Assembly: GCA_036782475.1 (NCBI GenBank)
Contig: DAIPYY010000001.1
Span: forward strand, 1-48,095
Reading direction: 5' to 3'
DNA from: Candidatus Saccharimonadota bacterium
Lineage (GTDB): Bacteria > Patescibacteriota > Saccharimonadia > Saccharimonadales > UBA4665
DNA length: 48,095 bases
The notes beneath the pieces are model-generated. The model was not told where the DNA came from and did no database searches. It worked only from the letters and a program-made list of their open reading frames with translations. The first letter of the stretch is position 1; each line of letters begins with the position of its first letter. This document shows positions 22,811 to 47,925 of this stretch, in pieces. Both the position numbers and the translations under genes were made by a program.

Positions 22811-23233
22811 TTATGCCGCGATAGTGCTTGTTTTGTTGAGCACGAAGTGAACGATGACCTGTGCCAGCGCCACGATAACGAGGCCGATAAGCGCGTAGAT
22901 GATGGTGTTTTTCGCGTTCGTGATCTTGCCGCTCTCGCCACCGGAGGTGATGTATTTGGCACCGCCCCAGATAATCATGATGACGGCGATCACACCGACT
23001 ACTACGGAGATGATGTTCACGATAAGGGTAATGATGTCGGTCAGGTTGTCACCTGTCGAAGTGTCACCCGGGGTACAATCACCGCTTAAGTCGCCATCGA
23101 GGTTAGTTCCTTGCGATAGACAGTCGGTAATGCTCGATTGAGCGTATACCGGTGCCGAAAGGGCAAGGGGAACTCCAACGACCGCCAGAGCGACTAAAAG
23201 GCCGGCGGCAATTCTTTTTATCTTTGCTATCAT
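22811..23233 (-). CDS. T4SS pilin, VirB2/TrbC-like (paralogue 1, candidate major pilin)
   Basis: Signal peptide ending PVYA/QS, Cys pair (DC...DC), two hydrophobic helices flanking the loop AKYITSGGESGKITNAKN. Own promoter, SD and terminator. Confidence 0.8.
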   Translation of the reverse strand: MIAKIKRIAAGLLVALAVVGVPLALSAPVYAQSSITDCLSQGTNLDGDLSGDCTPGDTSTGDNLTDIITLIVNIISVVVGVIAVIMIIWGGAKYITSGGESGKITNAKNTIIYALIGLVIVALAQVIVHFVLNKTSTIAA

Positions 23234-23269
23234 ATCAGTTCATTTCCTTTCTTATTGCTTTACGTTTAG

Positions 23270-23297
23270 TGTATATCACGTTTGGGGCATTTTTCAA
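23270..23297 (-). promoter_or_regulatory. promoter TTGAAA-16 nt-TGaTATACA in front of pilin paralogue 1
   Basis: Minus strand reads TTGAAAaatgccccaaacgTGaTATACA, then a leader of about 30 nt with AAGGAAA. Confidence 0.55.
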
Positions 23298-23313
23298 CTA
23301 TAAACCCTCTCTT

Positions 23314-23745
23314 TTACCCGAGCGGCACGAGGCGGACTATAGAAGTTTTCTCTTTTGGAGTAGCAGCCTCCTTCGTCACTTTGAGCACATTACGCACGAG
23401 GAATTGTGCAAGGGCTACGATAACGAGACCGATGACGGCATAGATCAGGGCATTTTTTGCGGTCGTGACTTTGTTGGTATCACCGCCGGACGTGATGTAC
23501 TTCGCACCAGCGAAGATTATCATGATCACGGCCAGCAGACCGACAATGATACTGAGCACGTTGATGACCGACCGTATGACACTGGTAAGATCACCGCCGC
23601 CGTTGTCGTCGCAGTTCGTTCCGCTGCCGACAGCCTCGCAGACCGTTTCTTTGGTGGTCGCGGCACTTGCTGTCGCGGGCGTCGCGACGATTGCCGTCAG
23701 GGGGACAATGATGCTGAGCGTAAGTATGAGAAACCATTTTTTCAT
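23314..23745 (-). CDS. T4SS pilin, VirB2/TrbC-like (paralogue 2)
   Basis: Signal peptide ending ATASA/AT, Cys pair (VCEAVGSGTNC), helix-loop-helix with AKYITSGGDTNKVTTAKN. Starts 1 nt after the upstream stop, with SD AGGGGG inside the upstream gene. Confidence 0.8.
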   Translation of the reverse strand: MKKWFLILTLSIIVPLTAIVATPATASAATTKETVCEAVGSGTNCDDNGGGDLTSVIRSVINVLSIIVGLLAVIMIIFAGAKYITSGGDTNKVTTAKNALIYAVIGLVIVALAQFLVRNVLKVTKEAATPKEKTSIVRLVPLG

Positions 23746-23746
23746 A

Positions 23747-24154
23747 TTATAAAAACCCCCTTATGATCGCTACTATTATGACATCTGCAAGCGCGATAAT
23801 CACAAGGCCGACGAGCGCTCCAATGAGCGCATTACGCGCACCGACCGCCTTTTGGGTGTCACCGCCGGAAGTGATATACCGCATTCCCGAGACGATGATG
23901 ATAAAGACGGCGGCGATACCCGCTATAAGCGCGATAAGCTGAGTAACTCTGATAAGTATTCCGTCGCTTCCTGTAAGTGGGTTTGCTTCCGGGTCAGTAG
24001 TTTCACAGGTAGGTGAATCAGTGGCTTTACCAGTGCATGCTTCTTCGAGTATGTTAGTCTCAGCCGCAAATACCGGCTGTGTGAGGGTGAATGGCGCAGC
24101 AAGTCCACTGAGCATGAGCAGGGAAATCACCATTAGCATAATCTTCCGAATCAT
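23747..24154 (-). CDS. T4SS pilin, VirB2/TrbC-like (paralogue 3)
   Basis: Start at ATG 24154 (TGATG overlap with the upstream stop). Signal peptide ending PVFA/AE, Cys pair (ACTGKATDSPTC), loop MRYITSGGDTQKAVGARN. Confidence 0.8.
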   Translation of the reverse strand: MIRKIMLMVISLLMLSGLAAPFTLTQPVFAAETNILEEACTGKATDSPTCETTDPEANPLTGSDGILIRVTQLIALIAGIAAVFIIIVSGMRYITSGGDTQKAVGARNALIGALVGLVIIALADVIIVAIIRGFL

Positions 24155-24471
24155 CAGGATACTCCCTGGATAGCAAAGGTGACAATAGCGACTGCCGATA
24201 CCGAGACTATTAGCCCGATTGCGGCATACAAGATGCCCTGGCGGGCTTCCGCCATCTTTTGCGGCTCGCCGTTCGCGGTGATATACCGGAAACCGTTGAT
24301 GACGATCATCAGCAGGGCAATTGCAGCAGCAAGTCCGAACGCGATGGTCAAGCCATTGCGCCACAACATTTTCGCGCGGTCGCCCGGATCCATATTCGGC
24401 AAGGGAGAGAGGTCTATCTGCGGCGTGGTTGCCGCCACCTTGAGCAGGAAGGCGTGAAGTTGTGTCATCAT
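24154..24471 (-). CDS. VirB2/TrbC-like pilin paralogue 4 (short, no classical signal peptide, no Cys pair)
   Basis: 105 aa with two hydrophobic helices flanking FRYITANGEPQKMAEARQ. ATGA overlap with the upstream gene and TGATG overlap with the downstream gene. Confidence 0.7.
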   Translation of the reverse strand: MMTQLHAFLLKVAATTPQIDLSPLPNMDPGDRAKMLWRNGLTIAFGLAAAIALLMIVINGFRYITANGEPQKMAEARQGILYAAIGLIVSVSAVAIVTFAIQGVS

Positions 24472-25244
24472 GATGTCAAAGCCTTTCCGAGGAAGACAAC
24501 GACTCCCCTTGCTACAAGCGCAACTGCCAGCGCAATAAGCGCATTGATAATCGTACTCTGGGCGCGCTTCGTTATATCGGGCGTACCTTGGCTCGTGATG
24601 TACTGTATGCCTCCTGTCACGATGAATGCGATGGCGATATAGGCAGTGACAATGAGAAGGTCATCGACAATGGCAAGTGCGACCGCCGGGATTACGCCTA
24701 CGTTACCCCCCGAGGGTAGCAACGGTAGGTCCTGGCTGACATTACAAGTCTGAGGGTTGATTTGATTCTGCGGAATATATGCATACCATGTTTTGAGGCC
24801 AAGGAATTGGCGCTGACAGCTCACGCCGCTCGTCTGTACGACATTATATGGGGTCATAAACTGTACGAACGAGCCGAGCAACAGGAATGCCACAAGCCCC
24901 ACCAGCGCCTGCGTGATGGTACGTTTGCCCTTGGCGACCTTTTGCGGATCGCCGGCCGAAGAGCCATATTGTATGGCACCCCATATGATACCACCGACAA
25001 CAGCAACTCCTGCAACTATGGCAAGGAGTCGTATGAGCGGGTTGACATACTTTGCGACGGCGCATGACGTTGCATCACCTTGCGACCCCGTCGGGCAGCA
25101 GACTCTGCCCTGCTTATCACTCGTAAGCGGCGTTTGGCCGGCAGGACATGCCGCACTCGCGACCGGCGGGAACGCCATAGTGACCGTCAAGAACAAGCCG
25201 ACTGATACAAACAGAAGCGCGATACACGAAAGCAATCGTTTCAT
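24468..25244 (-). CDS. tandem double-module VirB2/TrbC-like pilin
   Basis: Signal peptide ending VASA/AC. Module 1 loop is IQYGSSAGDPQKVAKGKR and module 2 loop is IQYITSQGTPDITKRAQS. Each loop sits between two hydrophobic helices and each module follows a Cys-containing external segment. Confidence 0.75.
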   Translation of the reverse strand: MKRLLSCIALLFVSVGLFLTVTMAFPPVASAACPAGQTPLTSDKQGRVCCPTGSQGDATSCAVAKYVNPLIRLLAIVAGVAVVGGIIWGAIQYGSSAGDPQKVAKGKRTITQALVGLVAFLLLGSFVQFMTPYNVVQTSGVSCQRQFLGLKTWYAYIPQNQINPQTCNVSQDLPLLPSGGNVGVIPAVALAIVDDLLIVTAYIAIAFIVTGGIQYITSQGTPDITKRAQSTIINALIALAVALVARGVVVFLGKALTS

Positions 25245-25316: not shown

Positions 25317-26510
25317 TTATTCGATTCGCTCAAGACCGCCAAGCCATTTCGACCGCGACCAATCGCAAATGACAATATTAGGGTTGTAGCTCAACGTTGC
25401 TTGCTGCGAATCCTCGACCATGGGAGGAGTAATATTTTGCATCATATCCCAGTCCATGAATCCATCAAGCCCATCTTTTCGTTGACTCACATGGAAAAAT
25501 TGCACAAGTGAAAATTTGCCACTCTCAGGAGCAATCTGTCCTGATGGGTTATAGTATGCTTCGCTTACTCCTGCTTCCGGCGCATACACCGCCATGGTCA
25601 GCACGCTATTTCTTTTCTCATCGGAGTTTTTTTGCTGGTCGCGAGCAGCTGCAAATACATATAACGCACCGTCGGGATTGTTTATAGGATCGTATTCGGC
25701 ACATTTTGCATCACCGCCCCTTGAAGTTATCCATTCATAGTCGTACGCGAGCGGCTTTTGTCCGCCCCAGTCCGGATGGTATGAATTAATAATAATCGTA
25801 GGATCGGCCACGTTGTCCCGCATCCACTCTTCACGAGTGCCGATACCCCAGAAGGGATCTTGCGCGTATTCGTAAACCCCTTTTGGCCGCACGTCGAGCA
25901 TAGAAATGACTTTGCGTGCATTCGTACGATCACCGTTTTGGTAGAGTAGCTTCGCCGTTTTTTGTAACATAGACAAACGGATCATTAACATCTGGGGGTC
26001 ATCGACGGATGTTGCCATCCAAGGGGCATAGCCTGCTTCGAGCGTTTCTACGATTTGCTCCCTCAGTTTTGCGTTTGAAACTTTGGAACCTTCGACCAGA
26101 TCATGCGTGATGCCCTGTAAGAACTGTGATTTAGTCTCTGGATCCTGTCCTATGAATTTCTTTTCGCTCATCTTTTTGGCCTTTGCGTACTTCGGGGGCA
26201 CCTCATAGCTCGACTGCGGGGCCTGCTCTGAAGGGGTGGCACTGGACGAGGGACTGGATTCGGTCGCGGTGGGTGTAGGTGTCTCCGAGGCGGGCGGAGT
26301 GGTAGGATCAAGCGTAGAAGAAACGGGAGTCGGAGTTGTGTCGGCGGGATTGATTTCACCGGGAGCGGTAGCGCAGCCGGACAGGGCAAAGGCCCCGACC
26401 GCAGTTATCGCGACGGCTTTTCGGGACATACGTTCATATATACCGACCACTGTCTGTCTTACATAATCAAAAGCTCGCGCGCTTTCTTGATGCAGTGCTG
26501 TCTCGCCCAT
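25317..26510 (-). CDS. putative lipoprotein (Pro/Thr/Ser-rich linker plus about 300-aa globular domain), heads the pilin region
   Basis: Lipobox AFALSGC after a hydrophobic segment. ATG 26510 has a strong SD (GAGGAGGaaacgATG). An internal ATG at 26429 would give a canonical MSRKAVAITAVGAFALSGC signal. Confidence 0.7.
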   Translation of the reverse strand: MGETALHQESARAFDYVRQTVVGIYERMSRKAVAITAVGAFALSGCATAPGEINPADTTPTPVSSTLDPTTPPASETPTPTATESSPSSSATPSEQAPQSSYEVPPKYAKAKKMSEKKFIGQDPETKSQFLQGITHDLVEGSKVSNAKLREQIVETLEAGYAPWMATSVDDPQMLMIRLSMLQKTAKLLYQNGDRTNARKVISMLDVRPKGVYEYAQDPFWGIGTREEWMRDNVADPTIIINSYHPDWGGQKPLAYDYEWITSRGGDAKCAEYDPINNPDGALYVFAAARDQQKNSDEKRNSVLTMAVYAPEAGVSEAYYNPSGQIAPESGKFSLVQFFHVSQRKDGLDGFMDWDMMQNITPPMVEDSQQATLSYNPNIVICDWSRSKWLGGLERIE

Positions 26511-26536
26511 CGTTTCCTCCTCTCAGTTGATGACTA

Positions 26537-26542
26537 ACTATA
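26537..26542 (-). promoter_or_regulatory. -10 box TATAGT upstream of the lipoprotein gene
   Basis: Minus strand reads ttcTATAGTtagtcatcaactGAGAGGAGGaaacgATG. Confidence 0.3.
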
Positions 26543-26575
26543 GAATGAAACTATCCTTGTCTCTTTGCAATATTT

Positions 26576-26591
26576 TGTGACAAAAATCACA
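26576..26591. promoter_or_regulatory. perfect palindrome TGTGA-N6-TCACA (CRP/FNR-type half-sites) in the divergent intergenic region
   Basis: TGTGAcaaaaaTCACA lies between the lipoprotein/pilin unit (minus) and the VirB6-like gene (plus). Confidence 0.4.
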
Positions 26592-26718
26592 CTCAGAGCC
26601 ATGCACGCGACACAAGGCGGATATCAATTTTTGCGCAATTATGACGGTTTCCTGTAGCTTTTACGGTAGTTTTCGTGTTAAATATAACTATAAGCATAGG
26701 CGATACGTCTGAACCATC

Positions 26719-29700
26719 ATGAAACATAAACTGAAACTTTCTTTTTGGGCACTGGGAATCCTCGTCCTCATCATGTCCCAGCTTTTCCTCCTCGCCCCCG
26801 CGCAGAAAGCTTCCGCGCAAAGCCTGACTATTGATAGCCTACGGGATAAGACTCATGCTTTCGCGGTATACACCGTATGGCATAGATGTCTCTCCGAATA
26901 CGATGGGACTAGAGTAACAAATTTGAGGATGAACCTTAATTTCGGTACGAACCAGAAAACGTACATCCTCGGTTTTGCACGATCTGACGGTGACAATAAC
27001 GACGGGACAATAGCATGTTCTGACGCGGCGCGGCTCTGGGCTGCTCTTGCGGGCTACTCGGATGCAGACACCATGATGAAGGATCTCGGTTTTACGGTAA
27101 CGGTGCCTGGCTGTACCAGCGCACCCTGCACGACCGCCGGAGTTACATACTATGAGCTTGGTAAAACAACATCGAAATCATCTCTTCCCGGTAAGGTCGA
27201 GTCCATTTCTAGAGAGAAGGGAATTGCTACGTCTCTCCCCACGTGGGGTAGGTATATTCTTTCGGCCACAGCGGCAGAGGCAAAATGCCAGCCATCAAGC
27301 ACGACGGGGCCGGCAGCCCGCGCCAATCCAACGGTTAGTATTAACGTAGTTGGAGATGATATGGGCACCCTGGTCAGCAAGACATATGATGTCAGCACCT
27401 CCGAAATCGTGCCTGCATACCCGAACATGAGCGGAGGGAATAATGCGAGCTGTAAGTATCTAACCGATGATATTAAGGCCAGTGCCACAAAGTTTAGCAG
27501 TGCCCTTGTCGAAGACCGCATCACCACCGCTATTTCGCTTGCCGAAACTGCCATTTGCGAGCAGTTGCAAATAACAAACGACCGGGAAAAACAGAATTGT
27601 CTCAGTAACTTTGGTTCTTACCTTAAAACCTGTATCGACGACTACTACACCGGTAATCTGACGTCGGGTACTCGCAGCAGGGCAGATCCATTTGACACGG
27701 ATTACGTAGCAACTTGCGTCGAAACCAAAGCAAAAAAAGCAGGCTACAATATCTCTGCAGAAGATATCTCATCCATTCTAGGCGACGCTCAAAATCAAGC
27801 TACACCGAGCACAACCCCTTCGAGCGATTCGGCTACCGATATATGTGACATCCTTGGTGAAGAAGTGCCCATGAAGTGGATGGCATGCGCGGTACTCACT
27901 GCCATGAACGGTATCGTCAACGCCCTCTACGACATGATTCAAAACCTGCTCTACACCCCCATCGACCAAACATTGGCATCGAATCAGTACAATACAAGCA
28001 TCTCGAATTTCCGCATCTTCGGCATGGCTTTTATCTTCATCATCGGACTTATCATGGTGATAGCACAGGCAACAGGATCCGAGATAGTCGACGCATACAC
28101 CGTGCGAAAGGTCCTGCCAAAACTTGGCATTGCTATCATCGGCATTGCTATCGCCGTACCTATCCTCAAGATTCTTATCACCTTCACCAATGACCTCGGT
28201 ATAATGGCGGGCAATTTTATTACCGACATAGCGCCGACAGAGGTCATTAAATCAAATGCAGTAAAAAGTGATGCCGTGGGAGCTCTCGTCGGAACGGGTA
28301 CGCTTGGTATTATTGGCATACTAACCGCCGCAGTCGCACTGGTTGCCCAAGGGCCGGCGGCACTCACTTACATAGTCGTGGCCGTGGTGGCGCTACTCAT
28401 CGCCTTCGTCACGCTAGCCATGCGGCAGCTCGTCATCATCGTGCTTATCCTTTTCGCGCCTATTGCTATAGCCGCTTCCGCACTGCCCGGCACAGAAAAA
28501 CTTTGGAAGTTTTGGCGCGGCACGCTCATCACCACGCTCATGATGTTCCCCATCATCATGATCTTTCTCAAATCCGGTGTTTTCATGGCGTCAATCTTTG
28601 GCAATATCGGCGACCAGCTGAACAACCAAATGTACTACCTCATCGCAGCAGTCATATTTATCGCACCGTATTTTATGCTACCGCTCGCATTCAAGATGGC
28701 CGGTGGCCTCGTCGGCAATATATTTGGCATGGTCAATGACCGCAGCAAAGGCCTCTTCGACCGCATGCGCAATATGCGAGGCAATGCGATGAAGAAAAAC
28801 TGGCAAGGTTTAATGGAGGGGAATAGATACAAAGGGAATACAAGACTTGGCAACTTCATAAACAAGGCCGGAACTACTGCAAACGCATTTAGAACTGGCC
28901 AGGTAGGATACGATATGTCCCAATGGGGATCGCAAGTTAGGAGCGCTCAATCGAGGCAAGACCTTACGGCCGCAGAAGAAGCCCTGCAGAAGAATCCTCA
29001 TATGATGCGTCTCAAGTCCAATGACGACTACATGAGTGCTGCGATTCGCTTCCAAAATGCCGAGCAGCAGAAGGCTTTCCTCATGAACAAAGGCTACAGC
29101 GACACAGAATCAAGCGAAGCGGTTGCAACGATACGTTCTGCACGACGAAGCATGTCAAATGAAGCATTTGAAAATGCTGCCATGTTAGCGCTCCCCGGAA
29201 CCGGCACGTATGCGAAAACTGTGTGGAATGCTCAAACCCAGCAGTTTGAGGGCGGTAAGGCAGAGATGCTTCAGGATATTTTACGTCTTAGCAATGGAGA
29301 TCAAAACCGTGCCGACACCCTGCTTGCTATGATGCGTCAAGGCGCCCAAGGCGCAAGGCGGTTCGATCTTGCTGGCGGTAGCTATGGTGACGATAGAAGC
29401 AGAATGTATGCATTCGCAAGTGGCACAAGGAGCTCGGATGAGGTCAATAAGGAGTCTATCCAGGACTTCATCAAATCAAATGGTGCGGGTGCTATAGCTC
29501 AGGTCCGCGGTAATACGGTCAAACCTTTCGCGGAAGTTATTGCCCAGGATCTCCAAGCGGCTCAGCAGCAATACGGGTTTAATTCTCCTGAATTCCAGAA
29601 GAAGCTCGCCTCCGTTGCTGGCCTATACGATACCATGGGGTCTGCCTCTCCTGAGAATGCTGAAGAATACGCAGACGTGGTTATGTCCTTGCAGTTTGCT

Positions 29701-29898
29701 GGCGGTACACAGGATGTCCAGCAGCTAATCGAAGCCAACAGGGCAAACCCAGACTTTGTTAAAATGCGGCGTGAATATCAGAGTCAATATGCATATCAAG
29801 CAGCCCAAGCGGCTCAGCAACAACCGCCTCCCGCTGGTGGGCCAGGAGGACCTGGTGGACCTCAACCTGGTCAGCCAGGAGGACCTGCTGGACCCTGA
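26719..29898 (+). CDS. VirB6/TrbL-like polytopic T4SS membrane protein with a large Cys-rich ectodomain and a long cytoplasmic tail
   Basis: Signal peptide (..AQKASA/QS), a Cys-rich external domain of about 400 aa, about 7 TM helices (aa about 425-665), then a tail of about 390 aa ending QQQPPPAGGPGGPGGPQPGQPGGPAGP. Confidence 0.65.
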   Translation: MKHKLKLSFWALGILVLIMSQLFLLAPAQKASAQSLTIDSLRDKTHAFAVYTVWHRCLSEYDGTRVTNLRMNLNFGTNQKTYILGFARSDGDNNDGTIACSDAARLWAALAGYSDADTMMKDLGFTVTVPGCTSAPCTTAGVTYYELGKTTSKSSLPGKVESISREKGIATSLPTWGRYILSATAAEAKCQPSSTTGPAARANPTVSINVVGDDMGTLVSKTYDVSTSEIVPAYPNMSGGNNASCKYLTDDIKASATKFSSALVEDRITTAISLAETAICEQLQITNDREKQNCLSNFGSYLKTCIDDYYTGNLTSGTRSRADPFDTDYVATCVETKAKKAGYNISAEDISSILGDAQNQATPSTTPSSDSATDICDILGEEVPMKWMACAVLTAMNGIVNALYDMIQNLLYTPIDQTLASNQYNTSISNFRIFGMAFIFIIGLIMVIAQATGSEIVDAYTVRKVLPKLGIAIIGIAIAVPILKILITFTNDLGIMAGNFITDIAPTEVIKSNAVKSDAVGALVGTGTLGIIGILTAAVALVAQGPAALTYIVVAVVALLIAFVTLAMRQLVIIVLILFAPIAIAASALPGTEKLWKFWRGTLITTLMMFPIIMIFLKSGVFMASIFGNIGDQLNNQMYYLIAAVIFIAPYFMLPLAFKMAGGLVGNIFGMVNDRSKGLFDRMRNMRGNAMKKNWQGLMEGNRYKGNTRLGNFINKAGTTANAFRTGQVGYDMSQWGSQVRSAQSRQDLTAAEEALQKNPHMMRLKSNDDYMSAAIRFQNAEQQKAFLMNKGYSDTESSEAVATIRSARRSMSNEAFENAAMLALPGTGTYAKTVWNAQTQQFEGGKAEMLQDILRLSNGDQNRADTLLAMMRQGAQGARRFDLAGGSYGDDRSRMYAFASGTRSSDEVNKESIQDFIKSNGAGAIAQVRGNTVKPFAEVIAQDLQAAQQQYGFNSPEFQKKLASVAGLYDTMGSASPENAEEYADVVMSLQFAGGTQDVQQLIEANRANPDFVKMRREYQSQYAYQAAQAAQQQPPPAGGPGGPGGPQPGQPGGPAGP

Positions 29899-31668: not shown

Positions 31669-31675
31669 GATCTTT

Positions 31676-31683
31676 ATTATACA
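31676..31683 (-). promoter_or_regulatory. -10 TATAAT abutted by TG, 7 nt upstream of the PP2C ATG
   Basis: Minus strand reads agTGTATAATaaagatcATG. Confidence 0.45.
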
Positions 31684-31738
31684 CTACGCTTGTGTTTTTT
31701 GCAATAGTTTTATGTAGTCGTAGTGGTTTTCGCAGCGA

Positions 31739-34564: not shown

Positions 34565-34572
34565 ATAGTTCT

Positions 34573-34580
34573 AGTATACA
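34573..34580 (-). promoter_or_regulatory. -10 TATACT abutted by TG, 8 nt upstream of the ATPase ATG
   Basis: Minus strand reads gTGTATACTagaactatATG. Confidence 0.45.
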
Positions 34581-34649
34581 CGCCCTTCGGTGGTATGCGT
34601 ATGGGAGTATGGCAGCGTTTTCTATGATTTTTGCTAAATGATATTTTTG

Positions 34650-34658
34650 TGATATAAT
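34650..34658 (+). promoter_or_regulatory. extended -10 TGaTATAAT, 6 nt upstream of ATG 34665
   Basis: tgTGaTATAATatgagcATG. Confidence 0.45.
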
Positions 34659-34664
34659 ATGAGC

Positions 34665-35294: not shown

Positions 35295-35296
35295 CG

Positions 35297-35302
35297 TATA
35301 CT
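35297..35302 (+). promoter_or_regulatory. -10 box TATACT, 7 nt upstream of the polA ATG
   Basis: cgTATACTtataactATG. Confidence 0.4.
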
Positions 35303-35309
35303 TATAACT

Positions 35310-38459: not shown

Positions 38460-38465
38460 AGATGT

Positions 38466-39337: not shown

Positions 39338-39766
39338 ATGGCGGAGCAACTATTTCACATCGGCATAAAAGCACTCGTCGTTAACGGCGGCGGGGAAATA
39401 TTGATGCTCAAGGAAGTGTTCCCGGACGGCGGCATGCAGTGGGATGTCCCCGGCGGCCGGATGGATCCGGGCGAGACGTTCCTAGAGACACTCTCGAGGG
39501 AGCTGCGCGAAGAGATCGGAGTCGAAGAATATTTGACGGCGGAACATTTTGCGACAGCGCTCTCCAACAAGCAGATCCGGACAGAACAAGGCCCGGTCGC
39601 GCTGGTGCTCATCGTTTTCAGGGTCACCCTGGCGGATGCGGTCATGCCGCAAGCCCTCGAAAAGGGCGTGGAGTTGAGCTGGCAGCCAATTGACCAGGCG
39701 GCGGAGCTGTTACTCGACAAATATCCGCGCGAATTCGTCGAAAAGATCACGGAGATGGCCGCCTGA
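39338..39766 (+). CDS. NUDIX hydrolase
   Basis: Nudix box VPGGRMDPGETFLETLSRELREEIGV. Starts immediately after the previous stop. Confidence 0.85.
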   Translation: MAEQLFHIGIKALVVNGGGEILMLKEVFPDGGMQWDVPGGRMDPGETFLETLSRELREEIGVEEYLTAEHFATALSNKQIRTEQGPVALVLIVFRVTLADAVMPQALEKGVELSWQPIDQAAELLLDKYPREFVEKITEMAA

Positions 39767-40650
39767 TGTGGAGGCGGTTCGGGGCATATCGGGCAGGGCG
39801 AAAGGTACCGGTCCAGCAGGGAGAGTTGTTCGCACGTGTCGCCCAAACACTGCGCAGCGAGGTGCGTATCCCACGGCGACGCTGGAGGCGACACACCGAC
39901 TTCCAGTACCTGCGCCCGCTTATCGAAGAGGCAAAAAACCGAACGAGGTACGCCGCGCAGCGTGCCGAACCGCAGGCGCTCGCAGCGGCGTGGCTGGAAG
40001 CACTCGTCCTGCAGGCACCGGGAGCGGTCCTGGCACAAGTCCAGATGGACAAGCACAAACATAGCTACCACAACAAGGCCGCACGCGTCATGGAGCTCAT
40101 CGATTTCAACGATTCATACGTCAGCGCGGTGCTCACGGTGCCGCCGGATCATTTGCATACTTTCAACAGTGATCTCAAGCGGCTCATCGACTGGTTCTGT
40201 GCGCGCGTCGGCGCGTGGACATTCACTGACAAGCAGTTCGAGGCGATCACGCACGGCCTGAGCCGGGAAATCGCCGTTTACCACGCGGCGAGGGCTGCTG
40301 GGTTCCAGGTGGTAATGACCACGCGTACCGAAGATGCCCTCGGTATTGACATGCACATCACCGACCCGGCGACCAGCCGGCGCGTCCATATCGACACCAA
40401 AACCAACTCGGCATTCCACTACCGCCTCATAGAGCTGCTCAGAGAAGGACGTCTCACCCAGGCGGACATCGACTTGGCGGAACGGCGGGGCTACACCGCT
40501 GTCATGAATGGGCACGGCGACGAGCGGGTGCGCGTGGTACTCTGGCGGATCGACCATGGCACACTGGGAACGATCGAGGATTTTGCCTTTGAGCGTACCG
40601 ACAGGCTCATAGCAGAACTTGTCGCGATACTCCGGGAGTACGGCGAGTAG
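39766..40650 (+). CDS. hypothetical protein (possible PD-(D/E)XK-like core in the C-half)
   Basis: TGATG overlap with the upstream NUDIX stop. The C-half has E...LGIDMHI...VHIDTKT, resembling a D...(D/E)xK nuclease motif. The true start may be internal. Confidence 0.5.
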   Translation: MWRRFGAYRAGRKVPVQQGELFARVAQTLRSEVRIPRRRWRRHTDFQYLRPLIEEAKNRTRYAAQRAEPQALAAAWLEALVLQAPGAVLAQVQMDKHKHSYHNKAARVMELIDFNDSYVSAVLTVPPDHLHTFNSDLKRLIDWFCARVGAWTFTDKQFEAITHGLSREIAVYHAARAAGFQVVMTTRTEDALGIDMHITDPATSRRVHIDTKTNSAFHYRLIELLREGRLTQADIDLAERRGYTAVMNGHGDERVRVVLWRIDHGTLGTIEDFAFERTDRLIAELVAILREYGE

Positions 40651-40712
40651 AGCACTTGCCGCGAAAACTGGGTAGCCCGGTGGCAAAAACCAGCCAATAA
40701 GCGTAAGGAGAA

Positions 40713-40721
40713 TGCTATACT
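40713..40721 (+). promoter_or_regulatory. extended -10 TGcTATACT, 9 nt upstream of the PrgI-like gene ATG
   Basis: aaTGcTATACTactaggagaATG. Confidence 0.5.
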
Positions 40722-40730
40722 ACTAGGAGA

Positions 40731-41840
40731 ATGGCTACCTATAAAGTACTACAGGATATTGAGGCAGAGGACAAGCTCGTCGGTCCGTTTACTTTGTGGC
40801 AGTTCATCTATCTGTTCGTGGCGGGCGCTTGCGGCTACCTGAGCTTCATCTCAATCGCAAAGAATGTGCCGATTTTCCTTATCCTTCTCCTGCCGGTTAC
40901 CTTGTTTGCGGGCTTCTTAGCCATCCCCTGGGGGAGTGACCAGCCGACAGAGATATGGGCACTTGCGAAACTGCGGTTTTTCCTGAAGCCGCGGCGACGT
41001 ATCTGGAACCAGGACGGCATGACTGAACTCGTCAGTATTACGGTGCCGAAGACGATCGAACGGCAGCTGACGAACGGGCTCAATCAGCATGAAGTCCATA
41101 GCAGGCTGAACGCCCTCGCAAGTACGCTCGACAGCCGTGGATGGGCGGTCAAGAATATTAATGTCAATTTATCCGCTTTGCCCACAGCCACGATGCAGCC
41201 GTCCGACCGCCTCGTCGATGTCGGGTCAATACCCCAAGAAGTGATAGCGGTGGATGTACGCCCGGGAGACGATATCTTGGATGAGACTGCCAATACGGTC
41301 GCTCATAATTTCGACGCGATGATCGACGAAAGAACCTCCCAGAAGCGGCAAAAACTGGTTGATTTCATGAACAACCCCTTGCCGGAATCGCCGTCAGCCG
41401 TCCCCGCGGCTGCACCGCTGCCGGCAGTATCTGCCGCACAGCCTGTTTCGGCGCCCGCTCAAGCGGCCCAGTGGTTTGCTCCGCCTCCTACTGCCGCTGC
41501 TCCATTTGCTGCCCCCATCATGTCGCCTGCCGCACCGCAGCCCGTCATGAGCATGGCAGTTCCGCAGGCGGTGGAGCCGACCGCCGCCGAAGAGGCGCTT
41601 GTCGCTCAGCTGAAAGCAAAAAACGAGCAACAGGAAAGCGCCTACACGCACCTGCAAAGTATCAAGACACCGGAAGAGCTGGAGGCGGAAGCGGCAGCCC
41701 AGCAAGTTGCTCCCCCAGAGACGCCGCCGCGTATGACATCAGAGAAGCAGGCTGCTATAATGAACCTATCACGAGACGACAATAAAAGTATTGCAACGCT
41801 CGAGAAAGAAGCGAATGAAGTGGTAATTTCGCTTCATTAG
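40731..41840 (+). CDS. PrgI/VirB3-like T4SS membrane protein with a long Ala/Pro-rich C-terminal extension
   Basis: N-terminus YKVLQDIEAEDKLVGPFTLWQFIYLFVAG plus two TM helices is the PrgI-family pattern found directly upstream of VirB4 in Gram-positive-type T4SS. About 250 extra residues follow. Confidence 0.7.
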   Translation: MATYKVLQDIEAEDKLVGPFTLWQFIYLFVAGACGYLSFISIAKNVPIFLILLLPVTLFAGFLAIPWGSDQPTEIWALAKLRFFLKPRRRIWNQDGMTELVSITVPKTIERQLTNGLNQHEVHSRLNALASTLDSRGWAVKNINVNLSALPTATMQPSDRLVDVGSIPQEVIAVDVRPGDDILDETANTVAHNFDAMIDERTSQKRQKLVDFMNNPLPESPSAVPAAAPLPAVSAAQPVSAPAQAAQWFAPPPTAAAPFAAPIMSPAAPQPVMSMAVPQAVEPTAAEEALVAQLKAKNEQQESAYTHLQSIKTPEELEAEAAAQQVAPPETPPRMTSEKQAAIMNLSRDDNKSIATLEKEANEVVISLH

Positions 41841-41866
41841 AGAGCGAACGAACAGGGTGGCATAAT

Positions 41867-42802
41867 ATGAATCCAAACCAACAATATCAACAACCAACTC
41901 AGCCACAACCCCAGTATGTACCACCAGCTGGCATGCCGGCAGCACAGCCGCAGTACGCCGCTACAGCACAGCCTATGCCAATCAATACCATACCGCCCGC
42001 TCCCTTGCAGGCCGTCAGTGCCGCGCCGGGTCAGCAGGCTCCGCCCGCCGGAGCTGGGGCAATAGCACCCAAGACAAATCCCAACAGCACGCAGAACACG
42101 CTTCTCATATCTGAAATTCGCGACGGTGTCGTCATCATGAGCGACGGCAGCTTCCGGGCGGTCGTCATGGTCAAAAGCATCAACTTTGACCTGATGAGCC
42201 CGCAGGAGCAAGAAAGCATCGAATACGGGTACCAGGGGTTCCTGAACTCGTTGTATTTCCCGATTCAGATTTTCCTGCGGTCGGAAAAAGTCGATTTACA
42301 GCCCTACATCGAGCGCCTCGACAAAATCCGCACCGAACACGACAACATGCTGCTCGCCATGCTGATGGAAGATTACATCAACTACATCGACCAGCTGGCA
42401 CTCCAGACCAACATCATGGACAAGAAGTTTTACATCGTGATACCGTATTTCCCGACCGCCAACCCAGAGATGGCGACGACCCAGAACAAGAATTTCTTTA
42501 AAGGGCTCGTCGAGATGTTCAGTAAGCAGGAAAACCATATTGTCATCAATGAGGCGGACCTGGAAAAAGCCAAGGCCGAGCTGCGCAACCGTGTCCAAGC
42601 GGTGTTGGGAGGGCTGCAGCAATGTTCCATCCAGGGGCTGCCGCTTGACACCCAGGAGCTCATCGAGCTGTACTATGACACCTACAACCCGGATACCGCC
42701 ACCAGGCAACAGCTCAAGAATTTCAATGATTTGACCGCTGACATCGTCACGAAAGGCGAGGGCATGGCACAACAGGCACATCTGCAAAGGGAGTTACAGT
42801 AA
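41867..42802 (+). CDS. stand-alone VirB4 N-terminal-domain-like protein with a Gln/Pro-rich N-terminus
   Basis: No P-loop. The segment order parallels the N-domain of the next gene: FRAVVMVKSINFDLMS with ARTYYVYGYPRQVFTG, FPIQIFLRSEKVDLQPYIERL with IDISIYVYPVESQLVLDNL, and KKFYIVIPYF with FFRFGLYFTIYA. The TAATG overlap couples it to VirB4. Confidence 0.55.
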   Translation: MNPNQQYQQPTQPQPQYVPPAGMPAAQPQYAATAQPMPINTIPPAPLQAVSAAPGQQAPPAGAGAIAPKTNPNSTQNTLLISEIRDGVVIMSDGSFRAVVMVKSINFDLMSPQEQESIEYGYQGFLNSLYFPIQIFLRSEKVDLQPYIERLDKIRTEHDNMLLAMLMEDYINYIDQLALQTNIMDKKFYIVIPYFPTANPEMATTQNKNFFKGLVEMFSKQENHIVINEADLEKAKAELRNRVQAVLGGLQQCSIQGLPLDTQELIELYYDTYNPDTATRQQLKNFNDLTADIVTKGEGMAQQAHLQRELQ

Positions 42803-44715
42803 TGGCAAAACAAAAGATCGATCCCGTCCTCTTGGCGCAGCAACAGCGGGCCCGCGAGCAGGCTGAAGTAGCCGAAGCATTCCGCAAAGGCGTGACGGCG
42901 CTCCGCGATTTTATCGCCCCCAGCAGTATTGAGTTCTTCGGCAGCTATTTCCAGCTTGGCACGCGCCTGGCCCGAACCTACTATGTCTACGGCTACCCCC
43001 GACAGGTGTTTACCGGCTGGCTCAGCGGACTCGTCAACCTCGATGAAATCATAGATATATCGATTTACGTCTATCCTGTCGAGAGCCAGCTTGTGCTCGA
43101 TAACTTACGCAAGAAAGTCACCCAGCTCGAAGCGGGCCTCCAGATCGACGCAGAAAAGGGCCGGGTACGCGATCCGAGCAAGCAGGCTGCCATCCTCGAC
43201 GCCGAGGAAATGCGGGACAAACTCCAGGTGGGCGAGGAGCGGTTCTTCCGTTTCGGACTGTATTTCACCATCTACGCCAACTCACAGGATGAGCTTGAGT
43301 TCATCAGCCATAAAGTGGAAAGTATGCTCGGCCAGCAGCTTGTCTACAGCAAAGCCGCGACCAGCCAACAGGAACAGGGACTCAACAGCGTCGCACCGCA
43401 GATGGTCGACCAGCTTCAAATCCGGCGTAACATGTCGACAGGCGCCATCAGCACGAGCTTCCCGATCACTTCGGCCGATCTTACCCAGGATAATGGCATC
43501 CTTTACGGCATCAACATGCATAATAGCGGATTGGTCATTTTCGACCGGTTCACACTCGAGAACGGCAACTCGGTCGTCTTCGCGAAATCCGGCGCCGGCA
43601 AATCATTCACCGTAAAACTTGAAGCATTGCGCAGCCTGATGTTCGGCACGGAAATCATCATCATCGACCCAGAGAATGAGTATGAACGCATGTGCGACGC
43701 TGTCGGCGGAGCGTATGTCCGGCTCAGCCTCAATTCTTCGACACGCATCAACCCGTTTGACCTGCCGAAAGTCGTTGACGTCGAAGAGGCCGACAACGCC
43801 CTTCGCTCCAGCCTGATCACACTGCACGGACTGCTCCGCCTCATCATGGGCGGCGCACAGGCGCAGCTCGTCGGCGGCAACACCACGATTATGCCGGCGC
43901 TCAGCCCGTCGGAAGAAGCCGACCTCGACGCGGCACTCATCACGACATACGAGAAAGCGGGTATCACCCAAGATCCTCTGACTCATACCGGAATCCCACC
44001 TACTATAACCGACCTCTATGATACGCTGCTACACATGGGTGGTAATGGGCCGCAGCTGGCCCAGCGGCTACGCAAGTATACTAGCGGCACGTTCGCCGGC
44101 ATATTCAGCCAGCAGAGCAACATCGACATCAACAACCCGATGGTCGTCTTCAACGTCCGCGATCTCGAGGACGAACTGCGGCCGGTCGCGATGTACATCG
44201 TATTGAATTACATCTGGAACAAGACGAAGAGTGACCAAAAACGCCGCATCCTCATCGTTGACGAGGCATGGCAGCTCATGAAGTACGAAGACAGCGCTAA
44301 CTTCCTTTTCAGCCTCGCCAAGCGCGCACGTAAATACAATCTCGGTATTACGACTATCACGCAAGATGTCGAGGATTTCATGGGATCGCGCATGGGCCGT
44401 GCTATCGTCGCCAATGCCAGTATGCAGATACTCCTCAAACAGAGCCCGAGCGCCATCGACGTTCTTGCCGACGTGTTCAAACTGACAAGCGAGGAGAAAA
44501 AGCGTCTTGGACAATTCCCAGTAGGACAAGGCCTGTTTTTCGCCGGCCAAAACCATGTCCACATCCAGGTCGTCGCCAGCCCCACCGAAACGGGACTCAT
44601 CACCACCAATCCGACGCAAGTACAGGCTATCAAGCAAGGCGACCTAAACCAGCCCCAGGGAACCATCGACCTTCAAAACCAACTCTACCCCGGGAGTATG
44701 AATAACTTGTCGTAA
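42802..44715 (+). CDS. virB4: T4SS VirB4-family ATPase (Gram-positive PrgJ/TcpF type)
   Basis: Walker A AKSGAGKSF (about 43582-43608), IIIDPENEY, Walker B RILIVDEAWQL, ITTITQDVEDF. Confidence 0.88.
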   Translation: MAKQKIDPVLLAQQQRAREQAEVAEAFRKGVTALRDFIAPSSIEFFGSYFQLGTRLARTYYVYGYPRQVFTGWLSGLVNLDEIIDISIYVYPVESQLVLDNLRKKVTQLEAGLQIDAEKGRVRDPSKQAAILDAEEMRDKLQVGEERFFRFGLYFTIYANSQDELEFISHKVESMLGQQLVYSKAATSQQEQGLNSVAPQMVDQLQIRRNMSTGAISTSFPITSADLTQDNGILYGINMHNSGLVIFDRFTLENGNSVVFAKSGAGKSFTVKLEALRSLMFGTEIIIIDPENEYERMCDAVGGAYVRLSLNSSTRINPFDLPKVVDVEEADNALRSSLITLHGLLRLIMGGAQAQLVGGNTTIMPALSPSEEADLDAALITTYEKAGITQDPLTHTGIPPTITDLYDTLLHMGGNGPQLAQRLRKYTSGTFAGIFSQQSNIDINNPMVVFNVRDLEDELRPVAMYIVLNYIWNKTKSDQKRRILIVDEAWQLMKYEDSANFLFSLAKRARKYNLGITTITQDVEDFMGSRMGRAIVANASMQILLKQSPSAIDVLADVFKLTSEEKKRLGQFPVGQGLFFAGQNHVHIQVVASPTETGLITTNPTQVQAIKQGDLNQPQGTIDLQNQLYPGSMNNLS

Positions 44716-44724
44716 GGACCATTC

Positions 44725-47700: not shown

Positions 47701-47925
47701 GGAAAAAGCAATCACGAAGTAGGAATAGCGGTGGACTTCAATACGGGTGGGTCGAAAAAATCAGGCGCATCATGCGACGCGAGGGCGACAAGTAGCTCAG
47801 CCATGTGGAAGTACCTCAACGGCTCATCGGGAGAGCCGGGCGCACAGAAATTCGGAATATACCAGTACGCCGTCGAGCCGTGGCATTGGGATGCATCCCC
47901 GACACGCTGTAAGGAGCCTTTGTGA
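44725..47925 (+). CDS. large membrane-anchored protein with a C-terminal M15 (VanY-type, LAS fold) D-Ala-D-Ala peptidase domain; candidate T4SS cell-wall hydrolase
   Basis: TM helix near aa 115-140 and a central TM cluster near aa 545-590. C-terminus has SSFRMHSHQQDLW, SNHEVGIAVDF (47707-47739) and EPWHWD (47875-47892), the SxxR / SxHxxGxAxD / ExxH zinc-peptidase pattern. Confidence 0.75.
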   Translation: MASSQTLIPTGENQYDDEDMERLRRQERGVTAAEDGAPTDAVDMSGIDPTADPDYVAPAGKAGGTAAGAPNSASNLEQTALGNQPGLDAEDGFYTGGGGKGRKRRKFWTRRRAMAGGTIAGFFVGGGILLSPFVMGPLEFIHFAQSLSGPHFGISERASTRNITRFYKFITGRGTSTCTAKNCLVQDGGKGDTRLNFLERKYNKVIFKNIESKGFKMWTDSRTQTFKGWRIDTSSKNSPFKGMNESMIEDALKAYGVKKADIKKVGGTGGYWIKNEALFKRGQTRLVMAMLQESGYSKVGSWIRARQLCKFAGCGFHPLKILDEKLNDKLDKGLKKLKEEYEKSRRASITGTEASGATIDTTNTEEQTTGEDGERTNQSVDESLKTTKTTTSPTAISDFMKSFAARPSTKISANVLDVVGYACLAANIYKAAGDINFDQTVMPAIRLATEQIATGSQIEASSLIDGTFNSTSLELAHEYLEAKDSSGKTTSWSDAANIRQNNGLSGGTDISSDKKEILSNPGKGPSWLEWTEPMVDFCSNQAIQATMGVLSIGIGVLSGGMVSTIVGAVVGYFAAPAALNLIAQSVAGNALDIAGVKGIEMGQYADFGAFFGANLARQMRGGRILSSASALKLAQDNMDTKNEEFASQSIAYKLFNAYDSKSLISRVVDTQSTYATENIASTINNFLGIGTSTLSTIGGLFSKKSSAATTMYDYGIPMVGFSLEEQENPLTENPYENAAIVGAFLDTPASSSLKDRALRCNGVEFYKDDQFGWSIRSIADPNAGAENNVFQKYVTGHLDSDCGTDPVIAAADSDATVATGTGYVAAAEDDMWTRMRKFIDDLSEFESYTCLMADDETSCDNSGFGATTAASSSTVNTDDLYKDSTSISCDTRTKDLGTQEVQHESSTFKIRVCGIKEIPSSGQESTKGNQYYIEGADGMTIVNSRVSTIFMNLAEDATANNTKLSSSSSFRMHSHQQDLWNANPDPEAVGPPGKSNHEVGIAVDFNTGGSKKSGASCDARATSSSAMWKYLNGSSGEPGAQKFGIYQYAVEPWHWDASPTRCKEPL

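What the first reader, a model, noticed from the sequence alone, without database searches (positions are those of the whole stretch)
26719..29898. Giant VirB6/TrbL-like protein with a Cys-rich ectodomain and a Pro/Gly-rich tail
The architecture is a signal peptide, an external domain of about 400 aa with at least 12 Cys, about 7 TM helices, a cytoplasmic region of about 390 aa, and a terminal QQQPPPAGGPGGPGGPQPGQPGGPAGP. This resembles extended VirB6/TcpH-type channel subunits, but the ectodomain has no motif I can recognise. The gene is divergent from the pilin/lipoprotein unit across a palindrome-bearing spacer.
Basis: partly seen in the sequence, partly recalled or inferred. Interest (0 to 1): 0.6.

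Follow-up and report, generated by a model that had tools for sequence, protein, structure and literature searches.

The report
Extended VirB6 subunit, Saccharibacteria T4SS
This 1059-residue gene encodes the oversized VirB6-type membrane subunit of the chromosomal type IV secretion machine that ultrasmall Saccharibacteria carry. It is a known kind of protein, and its outer and inner domains vary far more between relatives than any other part of the machine.

Summary
ORF 26719-29898 (+) encodes 1059 aa: a signal peptide, a 390-aa ectodomain holding all 12 Cys, about 7 hydrophobic helices, a 360-aa Cys-free C-terminal region and a Pro/Gly tail.

The VirB6/TrbL reading is supported, but only indirectly. 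The protein itself matches no Pfam TrbL model. Its orthologues do, at the same genomic places. The only high-probability Foldseek hits are R388 TrwI/VirB6.

In about 70 of 80 related loci the gene lies between a divergent VirB2-like pilin operon and PrgI-VirB4. Homologues occur in 277 of 301 genomes sampled from the window's class.

This is the positional equivalent of SEML1_0013 of Southlakia epibionticum ML1, which is published as TrbL/VirB6-like and essential. This scan has already met the same kind in at least 85 other genomes. It is therefore a new member of a known kind.

What I add:
- The ectodomain folds confidently (pLDDT 82) but matches nothing in PDB or BFVD, and has only 11 homologues among 1.84 billion representative proteins.
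- VirB4 is 89-90% identical between congeners, whereas this protein is 32-37%.
- The N-terminal subdomain and the C-terminal domain are exchanged as cassettes on a conserved core.
- There is no meaningful co-variation with the pilins.

Function is inferred, not shown.

The parts
26719..29898 (+). Gene for the 1059-aa extended VirB6-like protein (the stop codon is 29896-29898)
   Evidence: ORF list. Homologues in 277 of 301 genomes of the class. T4SS context.
26719..26817 (+). Signal peptide, residues 1-33 (hydrophobic 5-31, AQKASA/Q)
   Evidence: Hydropathy. The N-terminus is 60-90% identical in close homologues.
26818..27450 (+). Ectodomain N-terminal alpha/beta subdomain, residues 34-244 (6 Cys). 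This is the exchangeable cassette.
   Evidence: AF2 ectodomain model, pLDDT 82, pTM 0.73. No fold match. P0003 and P0004 differ exactly here.
27451..27813 (+). Ectodomain helical subdomain, residues 245-365 (long helices 245-282 and 288-311; 5 Cys)
   Evidence: AF2 secondary structure. 75% identical to P0002 and 50% to P0005.
27814..27981 (+). Conserved extracellular neck, residues 366-421, with the invariant C376...W387-x2-C390 motif. This is the N-terminal edge of the class-wide conserved region.
   Evidence: Invariant columns in A1. The motif is in 116 of 131 complete family members, and the 8 of the other 15 that were printed carry shorter-spaced variants. Class-wide matches start at about residue 340-385.
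27982..28728 (+). TrbL/VirB6-like hydrophobic core, residues 422-670 (about 7 helices). Invariant residues include R569, P581, P590, W599, P650, P655 and G662.
   Evidence: NF046089 hit at residues 550-649. TrbL hits on orthologues. hhalign against TrwI. Foldseek hits 8rt9_F and 8rtd_L.
28729..28938 (+). Basic, poorly ordered linker, residues 671-740 (N673, G678 and R687 invariant at its start)
   Evidence: pLDDT below 50 at 672-739. Invariant columns.
28939..29817 (+). All-helical, Cys-free C-terminal domain, residues 741-1033 (class 0 of at least three sequence classes)
   Evidence: AF2 pLDDT mostly 75-90 by 10-residue block, all helices. Classes and hhalign. No Cys in the C-terminal region of 129 of 131 family members.
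29818..29895 (+). Disordered Gln/Pro/Gly tail, residues 1034-1059
   Evidence: pLDDT about 33. Tails of orthologues are often P/G/Q/A-rich but are not conserved in sequence.
26511..26718 (.). Divergent spacer with the palindrome TGTGACAAAAATCACA (26576-26591)
   Evidence: Sequence. The palindrome is not conserved in 77 relatives. No promoter-like site was scored in it.
25317..26510 (-). Lineage-specific lipoprotein gene, lying between the pilin operon and the VirB6-like gene
   Evidence: ORF with an LSGC lipobox. No family hit. Absent at this place in L031-L034. Unrelated extra genes fill the same slot in 18 of 70 loci.
22811..25244 (-). VirB2-like pilin operon, divergent partner of the gene
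   Evidence: PF18895 hits. The same arrangement is seen in relatives.
39766..47925 (+). Second half of the T4SS: o294, PrgI/VirB3-like (40731-41840), o311, VirB4 (42802-44715) and a 1066-aa VanY-domain hydrolase. It is separated from the VirB6-like gene by PP2C, a P-type ATPase, PolA, dUTPase and NUDIX genes.
   Evidence: Pfam. ORFs. In most relatives these genes directly follow the VirB6-like gene.

Best explanation
The gene encodes the extended VirB6-type subunit of the chromosomal, monoderm-type type IV secretion system of a Saccharibacterium (class Saccharimonadia).

Shown here: it is a secreted-then-anchored polytopic protein. Its hydrophobic core is distantly homologous to TrbL/VirB6. 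The gene is the first on the VirB3/VirB4 side of the T4SS locus and is divergent from the VirB2-like pilin operon. It is present in nearly every genome of the class.

Inferred by analogy with R388 TrwI and with the essentiality of SEML1_0013: several copies of the core, probably five, form the platform in and just above the cytoplasmic membrane. Pilins are fed into the growing pilus on this platform, and substrates pass through it. The invariant Cys-Trp-Cys neck and the disulfide-rich ectodomain extend the platform through the wall. Its variable N-terminal subdomain is outermost. The Cys-free helical C-terminal domain faces the cytoplasm and docks the VirB4/VirB3 motor or the cargo.

The conserved core carries ectodomain and C-terminal modules that are replaced between lineages. 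This fits surface exposure and lineage-specific partners.
For: Architecture.

Homology of the core:
- NF046089 at E 1.2e-6, found in 5 of 26 homologues.
- Pfam TrbL in 4 of 26 homologues.
- TrbL PF04610 hits the orthologous places found. Examples are G218:C1:291752-292315, G110:C2:12590-13213 and G134:C1:16661-17206. In all, 157 of 301 genomes are hit, 33 of them over the cut-off.
- hhalign against the TrwI family gives P 7.4e-4 over 164 columns, against 0.36 for the reversed control.
- Foldseek probability is 0.80-0.82 only for TrwI/VirB6 chains 8rt9_F and 8rtd_L.
- Several homologues carry a precomputed TrbL_3 PF19590 hit.

Context: the order Hsp20, pilin array (reverse strand), VirB6-like, PrgI, o311, VirB4, hydrolase is seen in about 70 of 80 loci.

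Distribution: 277 of 301 genomes, and 253 of 259 high-quality ones.

Topology:
- Cys density is 2.2 per 100 aa in ectodomains, 0.31 in the core and 0.00 in C-terminal domains.
- The cytoplasmic background is 0.48%.
- Lys and Arg cluster in loops 452-468, 590-601 and after residue 665 (sequence).

Literature:
- SEML1_0013 is 1088 aa, divergent from the six-pilin array, Foldseek TrbL/VirB6 and essential (PMC10633639, Table S1/S2).
- VirB6 homologues occur in Patescibacteria (PMC12102498).
- Extended VirB6 proteins and the R388 pentamer are reviewed in PMC12857230.
Against: - The protein itself reaches no curated family threshold. Pfam TrbL and TrbL_3 give nothing, and NF046089 scores 27.6 bits against a cut-off of 120.
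- The profile-profile probability is only 26%.
- The Foldseek E-values are 0.5-0.8, with TM-scores of 0.37-0.39.
- In R388 only two VirB6 helices are truly in the membrane (PMC12857230), so the 7-TM topology and the cytoplasmic location of the C-terminal domain are predictions.
- Nothing here shows oligomeric state, partners, expression or function.
Confidence: 0.85

Rival explanations
1. The protein is mainly a surface adhesin or host-recognition protein. In this reading the VirB6-like core is just its membrane anchor, and the variable ectodomain binds the host bacterium's envelope and sets host range.
For: - The ectodomain is the most variable element of the whole locus. Median pairwise similarity is 0, against 0.86 for VirB4.
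- It falls into 59 BLAST clusters among 131 proteins, and these are scattered over the core tree.
- The N-terminal subdomain is replaced wholesale between P0003 and P0004, which are otherwise 93% identical.
- This ectodomain type has only 11 homologues among 1.84 billion representatives.
- It is Cys-rich and confidently folded.
Against: - No adhesin, lectin or Ig-like fold or motif was found.
- The core and neck are strongly conserved, and the gene is always embedded in the T4SS operon, so a structural role in the machine is the simpler reading.
- The two roles do not exclude each other.
Confidence: 0.25
2. The ectodomain replaces the missing VirB5 (pilus tip or nucleator) or other periplasmic T4SS parts by fusion to VirB6.
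For: - This system has VirB2-like pilins, and no VirB5 was recognised in the window.
- In R388 a VirB5 pentamer sits directly on VirB6 (PMC12857230).
- The ectodomain contains a long helical hairpin at residues 245-311.
Against: Foldseek of the well-predicted ectodomain finds no VirB5/TraC-like or any other T4SS structure. The best E-value is 1.1 and the TM-score is at most 0.26. There is no sequence match to PDB chains either.
Confidence: 0.12
3. It is a transporter permease unrelated to secretion. KEGG assigns the ML1 homologue K01992, an ABC-2 permease.
For: It has a polytopic hydrophobic core. The automatic K01992 label on SEML1_0011 and SEML1_0013 appears in the published table.
Against: - There is no ABC-2 or other transporter family hit.
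- No ABC ATPase gene lies next to it.
- The T4SS synteny is invariant.
- The TrbL and TrwI signals are specific.
Confidence: 0.03

Closest known systems
SEML1_0013 (and its paralogue SEML1_0011) of Ca. Southlakia epibionticum ML1 (Wang et al. 2023, Cell; PMC10633639)
   Same: - Giant size: 1088 aa against 1059 aa here.
- Divergent from the VirB2-like pilin array and upstream of PrgI/VirB4.
- Recognised as TrbL/VirB6 only by structure.
- A helical, ARM-like C-terminal domain.
- A member of a T4SS without a relaxase or a clear coupling protein.
- SEML1_0013 was scored essential by Tn-seq.
   Different: - ML1 and most genomes of its family carry two adjacent paralogues. This genome and most of its own family show one.
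- Here the locus is split by about 10 kb of housekeeping genes, and a lipoprotein gene lies in the divergent spacer.
- The ectodomain type is restricted to a small clade.
TrwI/VirB6 of plasmid R388 (MPF_T; PDB 8RT9, 8RTD) and Pfam TrbL PF04610
   Same: - A hydrophobic multi-helix core.
- The motif around AP-x-AIAA-x-LPGT-x-K-x-W-x-x-W aligns with TrwI GPLFI-x-AL-x-WQPT-x-RFF-x-x-W.
- These are the best structural hits.
- It is encoded with VirB2, VirB3 and VirB4.
   Different: - TrwI has 342 aa, with no large ectodomain and no C-terminal domain.
- It belongs to a diderm conjugative system with VirB5 and VirB7-VirB11.
- Sequence similarity to the present protein is below curated thresholds.
Extended VirB6 proteins of MPF_FA/FATA and Rickettsiales systems (Tn916 Orf15, pCW3 TcpH, the CD3337/EF1877 family NF046089; reviewed in PMC12857230)
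   Same: - A VirB6-like core with large hydrophilic extensions.
- A monoderm setting for the Gram-positive members.
- A weak but significant hit to NF046089 (E 1.2e-6).
   Different: - Those proteins have 700-900 aa, with extensions that are mostly central or C-terminal.
- A 390-aa disulfide-rich N-terminal ectodomain behind a cleavable signal peptide is not described for them.
- The score is far below the family cut-off.
- They serve conjugation, whereas this system lacks a relaxase according to the literature.

Membership tests
TrbL/VirB6 superfamily (Pfam PF04610 TrbL, PF19590 TrbL_3) | The protein's own match to the family HMM at or above the curated cut-off | tested here: not met
   There is no TrbL or TrbL_3 hit for the protein at E up to 0.1-1.
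TrbL/VirB6 superfamily (Pfam PF04610 TrbL, PF19590 TrbL_3) | A transitive link: clear orthologues match the family HMM at the homologous region | tested here: met
   PF04610 hits 157 of 301 genomes of the class, 33 of them over the cut-off. The hits lie at places that the query protein matches at E 1e-30 to 1e-38. A precomputed TrbL_3 hit is recorded on many homologues.
TrbL/VirB6 superfamily (Pfam PF04610 TrbL, PF19590 TrbL_3) | Profile-profile and structural similarity to a solved VirB6 (TrwI) | tested here: inconclusive
   hhalign gives P 7.4e-4 and probability 26% over 164 columns, against 0.36 for the reversed control. Foldseek gives probability 0.80-0.82 but E 0.5-0.8 and TM-score 0.37-0.39, from a whole-protein model.
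TrbL/VirB6 superfamily (Pfam PF04610 TrbL, PF19590 TrbL_3) | A polytopic core of five or more hydrophobic helices | tested here: met
   About 7 helices between residues 422 and 670.
TrbL/VirB6 superfamily (Pfam PF04610 TrbL, PF19590 TrbL_3) | Encoded with VirB4 and other T4SS genes | tested here: met
   The window holds pilins, PrgI, VirB4 and the hydrolase. The order is conserved in about 70 of 80 loci.
TrbL/VirB6 superfamily (Pfam PF04610 TrbL, PF19590 TrbL_3) | It assembles as the central (pentameric) platform and is required for secretion or pilus formation | not testable with these tools
   This needs structure determination or genetics.
Saccharibacterial extended VirB6 (SEML1_0013 type) | Position: divergent from the VirB2-like pilin array, on the PrgI-VirB4 side | tested here: met
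   Window, relatives and the ML1 gene table.
Saccharibacterial extended VirB6 (SEML1_0013 type) | Architecture: signal peptide, Cys-rich ectodomain, Cys-Trp-Cys neck, TrbL-like core, then a Cys-free C-terminal domain of about 400 aa | tested here: met
   (131 complete family members).
Saccharibacterial extended VirB6 (SEML1_0013 type) | Direct sequence homology to SEML1_0013 itself | not tested
CD3337/EF1877 mobilome membrane protein family (NCBIfam NF046089) | A match at or above the curated cut-off (120 bits) | tested here: not met
   The score is 27.6 bits at E 1.2e-6, over residues 550-649 only. 5 of 26 homologues match.
VirB5/TraC-like pilus-tip proteins (considered for the ectodomain) | The fold of the ectodomain resembles VirB5/TraC | tested here: not met
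   The ectodomain model (pLDDT 82, pTM 0.73) finds no such match. The best PDB E-value is 1.1.

The most novel reading that the evidence does not exclude
The VirB6-like subunit may be the polymorphic specificity element of an otherwise almost invariant Saccharibacterial T4SS. A conserved Cys-Trp-Cys neck and TrbL-like core would carry an outer N-terminal cassette and an inner C-terminal domain that are exchanged by recombination between lineages. This would match the machine to particular host envelopes on the outside and to particular cargo or motor partners on the inside. The ectodomain here would then be an orphan fold that acts as the host-contact module.
Probability: 0.25. Interest if true: 0.6.

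Novelty: new member of a known kind. Interest (0 to 1): 0.3.

Why it matters
The Saccharibacterial T4SS is essential for epibiotic growth, yet its function is described in the literature as completely unknown (PMC11665869). Reviews also say it is not known what the extra domains of extended VirB6 proteins do (PMC12857230).

This gene is an ordinary member of that published family, so the find does not change the picture. The comparative results give a concrete handle:
- VirB4 is about 90% conserved between congeners, while the VirB6-like protein is 32-37% identical.
- Cassette-like replacement affects the outermost subdomain and the C-terminal domain.
- The neck and core stay fixed.

If host specificity or cargo choice of these epibionts resides in the T4SS, this is the subunit in which to look. 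The domain boundaries given here say where to cut for swaps.

Tried and rejected
- **Direct family assignment.** Pfam and NCBIfam scans of the protein gave only chance hits plus one sub-threshold NF046089 hit. TrbL_3 found nothing in the window's own genome.
- **Sequence search of PDB**, with the protein and with a 26-sequence profile, gave only low-complexity or coiled-coil noise.
- **tblastn of the core against 72,556 plasmids** gave no match. The protein is therefore not a recent plasmid or ICE import.
- **Second copy.** No paralogue was found in the window's genome, which is 86.5% complete.
- **VirB5-like or adhesin-like fold for the ectodomain.** Rejected for lack of any PDB or BFVD match despite a good model.
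The partial rank correlation, controlled for core or VirB4 similarity, is only 0.02-0.08. This is negligible in size, and relatedness inflates such tests.
- **Palindrome as a conserved operator.** TGTGA-N6-TCACA was absent, perfect or near-perfect (most single-base variants), from the 400 bp upstream of the gene in 77 relatives. It was also absent from 1.37 Mb of related loci.
- **Lipoprotein as a conserved partner.** It is not conserved. Unrelated genes fill the slot in 18 of 70 loci, on the other strand.
- **ABC-2 permease (KEGG label of the ML1 homologue).** Rejected, with no supporting hit.
  - The fetch from genomes;
  - The genome search, which prevented wider context of the congeners and a direct look for ML1;
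  - The look-up of sequencing runs, which left expression and habitat untested.
- **Disulfide pairing** in the models could not be checked, because model coordinates are not exposed.
Full report
**What is there.** The ORF at 26719-29898 (+) is real and encodes 1059 aa.
- a hydrophobic N-terminal signal segment (5-31, then AQKASA/Q);
- a hydrophilic region of about 390 aa that holds all 12 Cys (positions 57 to 390);
- a hydrophobic block at 426-665;
- a hydrophilic Ala/Gln-rich region without any Cys;
- a terminal 29 residues made of Pro, Gly, Gln and Ala only.

Reading the hydrophobic block with the positive-inside rule gives seven helices. Basic loops lie at 452-468, 590-601 and after 665. 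The N-terminal domain is therefore outside and the C-terminal region inside. This is a prediction, not a measurement.

**Whose gene it is.** The window carries housekeeping genes: ValRS, ArgRS, PolA, a Mur ligase, TsaD and a P-type ATPase. It also carries two T4SS blocks. The first is the VirB2-like pilins (PF18895) at 22.8-25.2 kb. The second is PrgI/VirB3-like, VirB4 and a 1066-aa VanY-domain hydrolase at 40.7-47.9 kb. The genome is an 812-kb, 86.5%-complete assembly. All 80 related loci fetched from GTDB genomes come from Saccharibacteria/Saccharimonadales MAGs, apart from a few short and probably mis-binned contigs.

**Is the core VirB6/TrbL-like?** Direct evidence is weak. There is no Pfam hit, no TrbL_3 hit in the genome, and only a sub-threshold NCBIfam hit to the CD3337/EF1877 mobilome membrane family (E 1.2e-6, residues 550-649). 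Indirect evidence is consistent and specific:
- Pfam TrbL PF04610 matches 157 of 301 genomes of the class, 33 of them above its curated cut-off. The matched places lie inside the stretches my protein matches at E 1e-30 to 1e-38. Examples are G218:C1:291752-292315, G110:C2:12590-13213 and G134:C1:16661-17206.
- I built an 83-sequence core alignment and compared it by hhalign with a 45-sequence TrwI family alignment. TrwI was taken from R388, NC_028464. The result is P 7.4e-4 over 164 columns, pairing the conserved AP.AIAA..LPGT.K.W..W motif with TrwI GPLFI.AL.WQPT.RFF..W. The same alignment reversed gives P 0.36.
- An AlphaFold2 model of the whole protein (mean pLDDT 71.8, with domains mostly at 75-90) gives no significant PDB match. 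The only hits with Foldseek probability of 0.8 or more are TrwI/VirB6 chains of the R388 T4SS (8rtd_L, 8rt9_F, TM-score 0.37-0.39).

I conclude that the core is a distant member of the TrbL/VirB6 superfamily. The protein would not be filed there by any curated threshold on its own.

I mapped the window's T4SS proteins onto ORFs of 82 related loci. This gives one canonical order in about 70 of them: Hsp20, then a pilin array of 5-7 genes on the opposite strand, then the VirB6-like gene, then PrgI, o311, VirB4 and the hydrolase. A gap of 0-2 kb often lies between the VirB6-like gene and PrgI. The gene is thus a fixed T4SS component.

In the window and its nearest relatives (L031, L032, L033, L036) the locus is split. 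A P-type ATPase and PolA, among other genes, sit between the VirB6-like gene and o294/PrgI.

The lipoprotein gene in the divergent spacer is peculiar to this genome. The nearest relatives have a spacer of only 130-430 nt. In 18 of 70 loci an unrelated 300-450-aa gene, sometimes with a lipobox, occupies the slot on the other strand.

**What is already known.** In Southlakia epibionticum ML1 the T4SS is SEML1_0006-0019. SEML1_0013 (3267 bp) lies divergent from the six-pilin array. It was annotated as TrbL/VirB6 by Foldseek (TM-score 0.50) with a helical ARM-like C-terminal part, and was scored essential. SEML1_0011 is a second giant 'T4SS protein' (PMC10633639, Tables S1/S2). Quinonero-Coronel et al. 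found 480 VirB6 homologues in Patescibacteria, mostly with the MPF_T VirB6 profile (PMC12102498). The 2025 FEMS review describes 'extended VirB6' proteins and says the role of their extra domains is unknown.

My class-wide search agrees with this picture. 277 of 301 genomes (253 of 259 high-quality) have a homologue. The family that includes oral-type genomes usually has two adjacent copies, while the window's family usually has one. This scan has already reported the same kind in at least 85 other genomes, with the same reading. The finding is therefore a new member of a known kind.

**The ectodomain.** I modelled residues 34-420 alone, with 20 full-length homologues as the alignment. The model has mean pLDDT 82.1 and pTM 0.73. 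It shows an alpha/beta subdomain (about 34-244), a helical subdomain with two long helices (245-311 and beyond), and the neck helix. Foldseek finds nothing in PDB (best E 1.1, TM-score at most 0.26) or BFVD. In particular it finds no VirB5/TraC-like, adhesin or lectin fold.

phmmer against 1.84 billion representative proteins finds only 11 homologues. Each matches at the N-terminus, from about residue 35. Nine are proteins of 1040-1150 aa, and the other two are shorter entries of 400 and 642 aa. It is an orphan domain confined to a small clade of this family.

**Family-wide rules from 131 complete proteins.**
- A signal peptide is followed by an ectodomain of 82-526 aa.
- A neck motif, C-x(8-18)-W-x2-C, is present in 116 of 131. 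All 8 of the other 15 that were printed carry shorter-spaced variants.
- The TrbL-like core follows, then a C-terminal region of 235-558 aa.
- Cys density is 2.2 per 100 aa in ectodomains, 0.31 in cores and 0.00 in C-terminal regions. 129 of 131 C-terminal regions have none.
- Cytoplasmic proteins of the window have 0.48% Cys.

This partition supports the predicted topology and disulfide bonding outside the cell. The complete absence of Cys inside is stronger than the background predicts and remains unexplained.

**Rates and mosaicism.** Between this genome and its two congeners VirB4 is 89-90% identical and PolA 73-74%. The VirB6-like protein is 32-37% identical over part of its length. Over 61 loci the median normalised similarity is as follows:

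| Component | Median similarity |
|---|---|
| VirB4 | 0.86 |
| o311 | 0.61 |
| Pilins | 0.18-0.40 |
| VirB6-like core | 0.32 |
| C-terminal domain | 0.03 |
| Ectodomain | 0 |

The modules do not share one history:
- The query's ectodomain and core are closest to P0002 (62% and 87%). Its C-terminal domain is closest to P0003/P0004 (60%) and is essentially unrelated to that of P0002 (29.8% over 94 aa only).
- P0003 and P0004 are 93% identical from the helical subdomain to the end and share their first 11 residues. Their N-terminal subdomains are unrelated.
- Ectodomains fall into 59 BLAST clusters. C-terminal domains fall into three main classes. Classes 0 and 1 are homologous by hhalign (95.5%), while class 2 is not detectably so.
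- On a FastTree of the core, class 2 needs at least 7 changes. Several ectodomain clusters recur in distant parts of the tree.

There are caveats. The tree is a quick one, the clusters are single-linkage, some sequences come from short metagenomic contigs, and kin are not independent. Cassette exchange is the simplest reading, but it is not proven.

The ectodomain does not co-vary with the pilins beyond shared ancestry (partial rho 0.02-0.08).

**Mechanism (inferred).** By analogy with R388, copies of the core form the central platform on which VirB2-like pilins are assembled and through which substrates pass. The neck and helical subdomain would extend this platform through the wall of a monoderm cell that has no outer-membrane complex. 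The variable N-terminal subdomain would be the exposed end. The Cys-free helical C-terminal domain would dock VirB4/VirB3 or cargo.

What the system transports is unknown. The literature suggests effector delivery or nutrient or nucleic-acid uptake (PMC11665869; bioRxiv 2026.06.21.733656).

**Limits.**
- Model coordinates are not exposed, so disulfide pairs and a core-only structural superposition were not checked.

Noticed in passing
window 26576-26591: The perfect TGTGA-N6-TCACA palindrome in the divergent spacer is absent, perfect or near-perfect (most single-base variants), from the 400 bp upstream of the VirB6-like gene in 77 related loci. It is also absent from 1.37 Mb of related sequence. 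It is therefore not a conserved operator of this T4SS.
   Followed up: partly
window 25317-26510 (-): The lipoprotein gene between the pilin operon and the VirB6-like gene is missing at this place in the nearest syntenic relatives. In 18 of 70 loci an unrelated 300-450-aa gene, several with a lipobox after a long N-terminal extension, occupies the slot on the opposite strand. This looks like a variable accessory slot.
   Followed up: partly
window 29911-40650: The T4SS locus is split in this lineage. PP2C, a P-type ATPase, PolA, dUTPase and two NUDIX-like genes separate the VirB6-like gene from o294-PrgI-o311-VirB4. In most Saccharimonadales these T4SS genes are contiguous.
   Followed up: partly
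window 42802-44715 and 41867-42802: VirB4 is more conserved than PolA between congeners (89-90% against 73-74%). The unannotated 311-aa protein just upstream of VirB4 is 61-84% identical across the order. It is an unusually constrained unknown T4SS component.
   Followed up: no
residues 671-1059 of the protein (window 28729-29895) and orthologues: The C-terminal regions of 129 of 131 family members contain no cysteine at all. The cytoplasmic background in this window is about 0.5%. This depletion is stronger than the compartment alone explains.
   Followed up: partly
other genomes of the class, e.g. G155:C1:669628-670047 and G240:C1:338328-338756: The Pfam TrbL model also hits a separate family of ORFs of about 500-515 aa, far from the main T4SS locus, in many genomes of the two-paralogue family. 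This may be a third, short VirB6-like gene. None was found in the window's own genome.
   Followed up: no
L077 (CAYWFI010000036.1) 1416-7127; L111 (CAWFIL010000002.1) 8753-12061: L077 has two VirB6-like genes in tandem before PrgI. L111 is a solitary extra copy without T4SS neighbours, in a genome that also has the canonical locus (L103).
   Followed up: no
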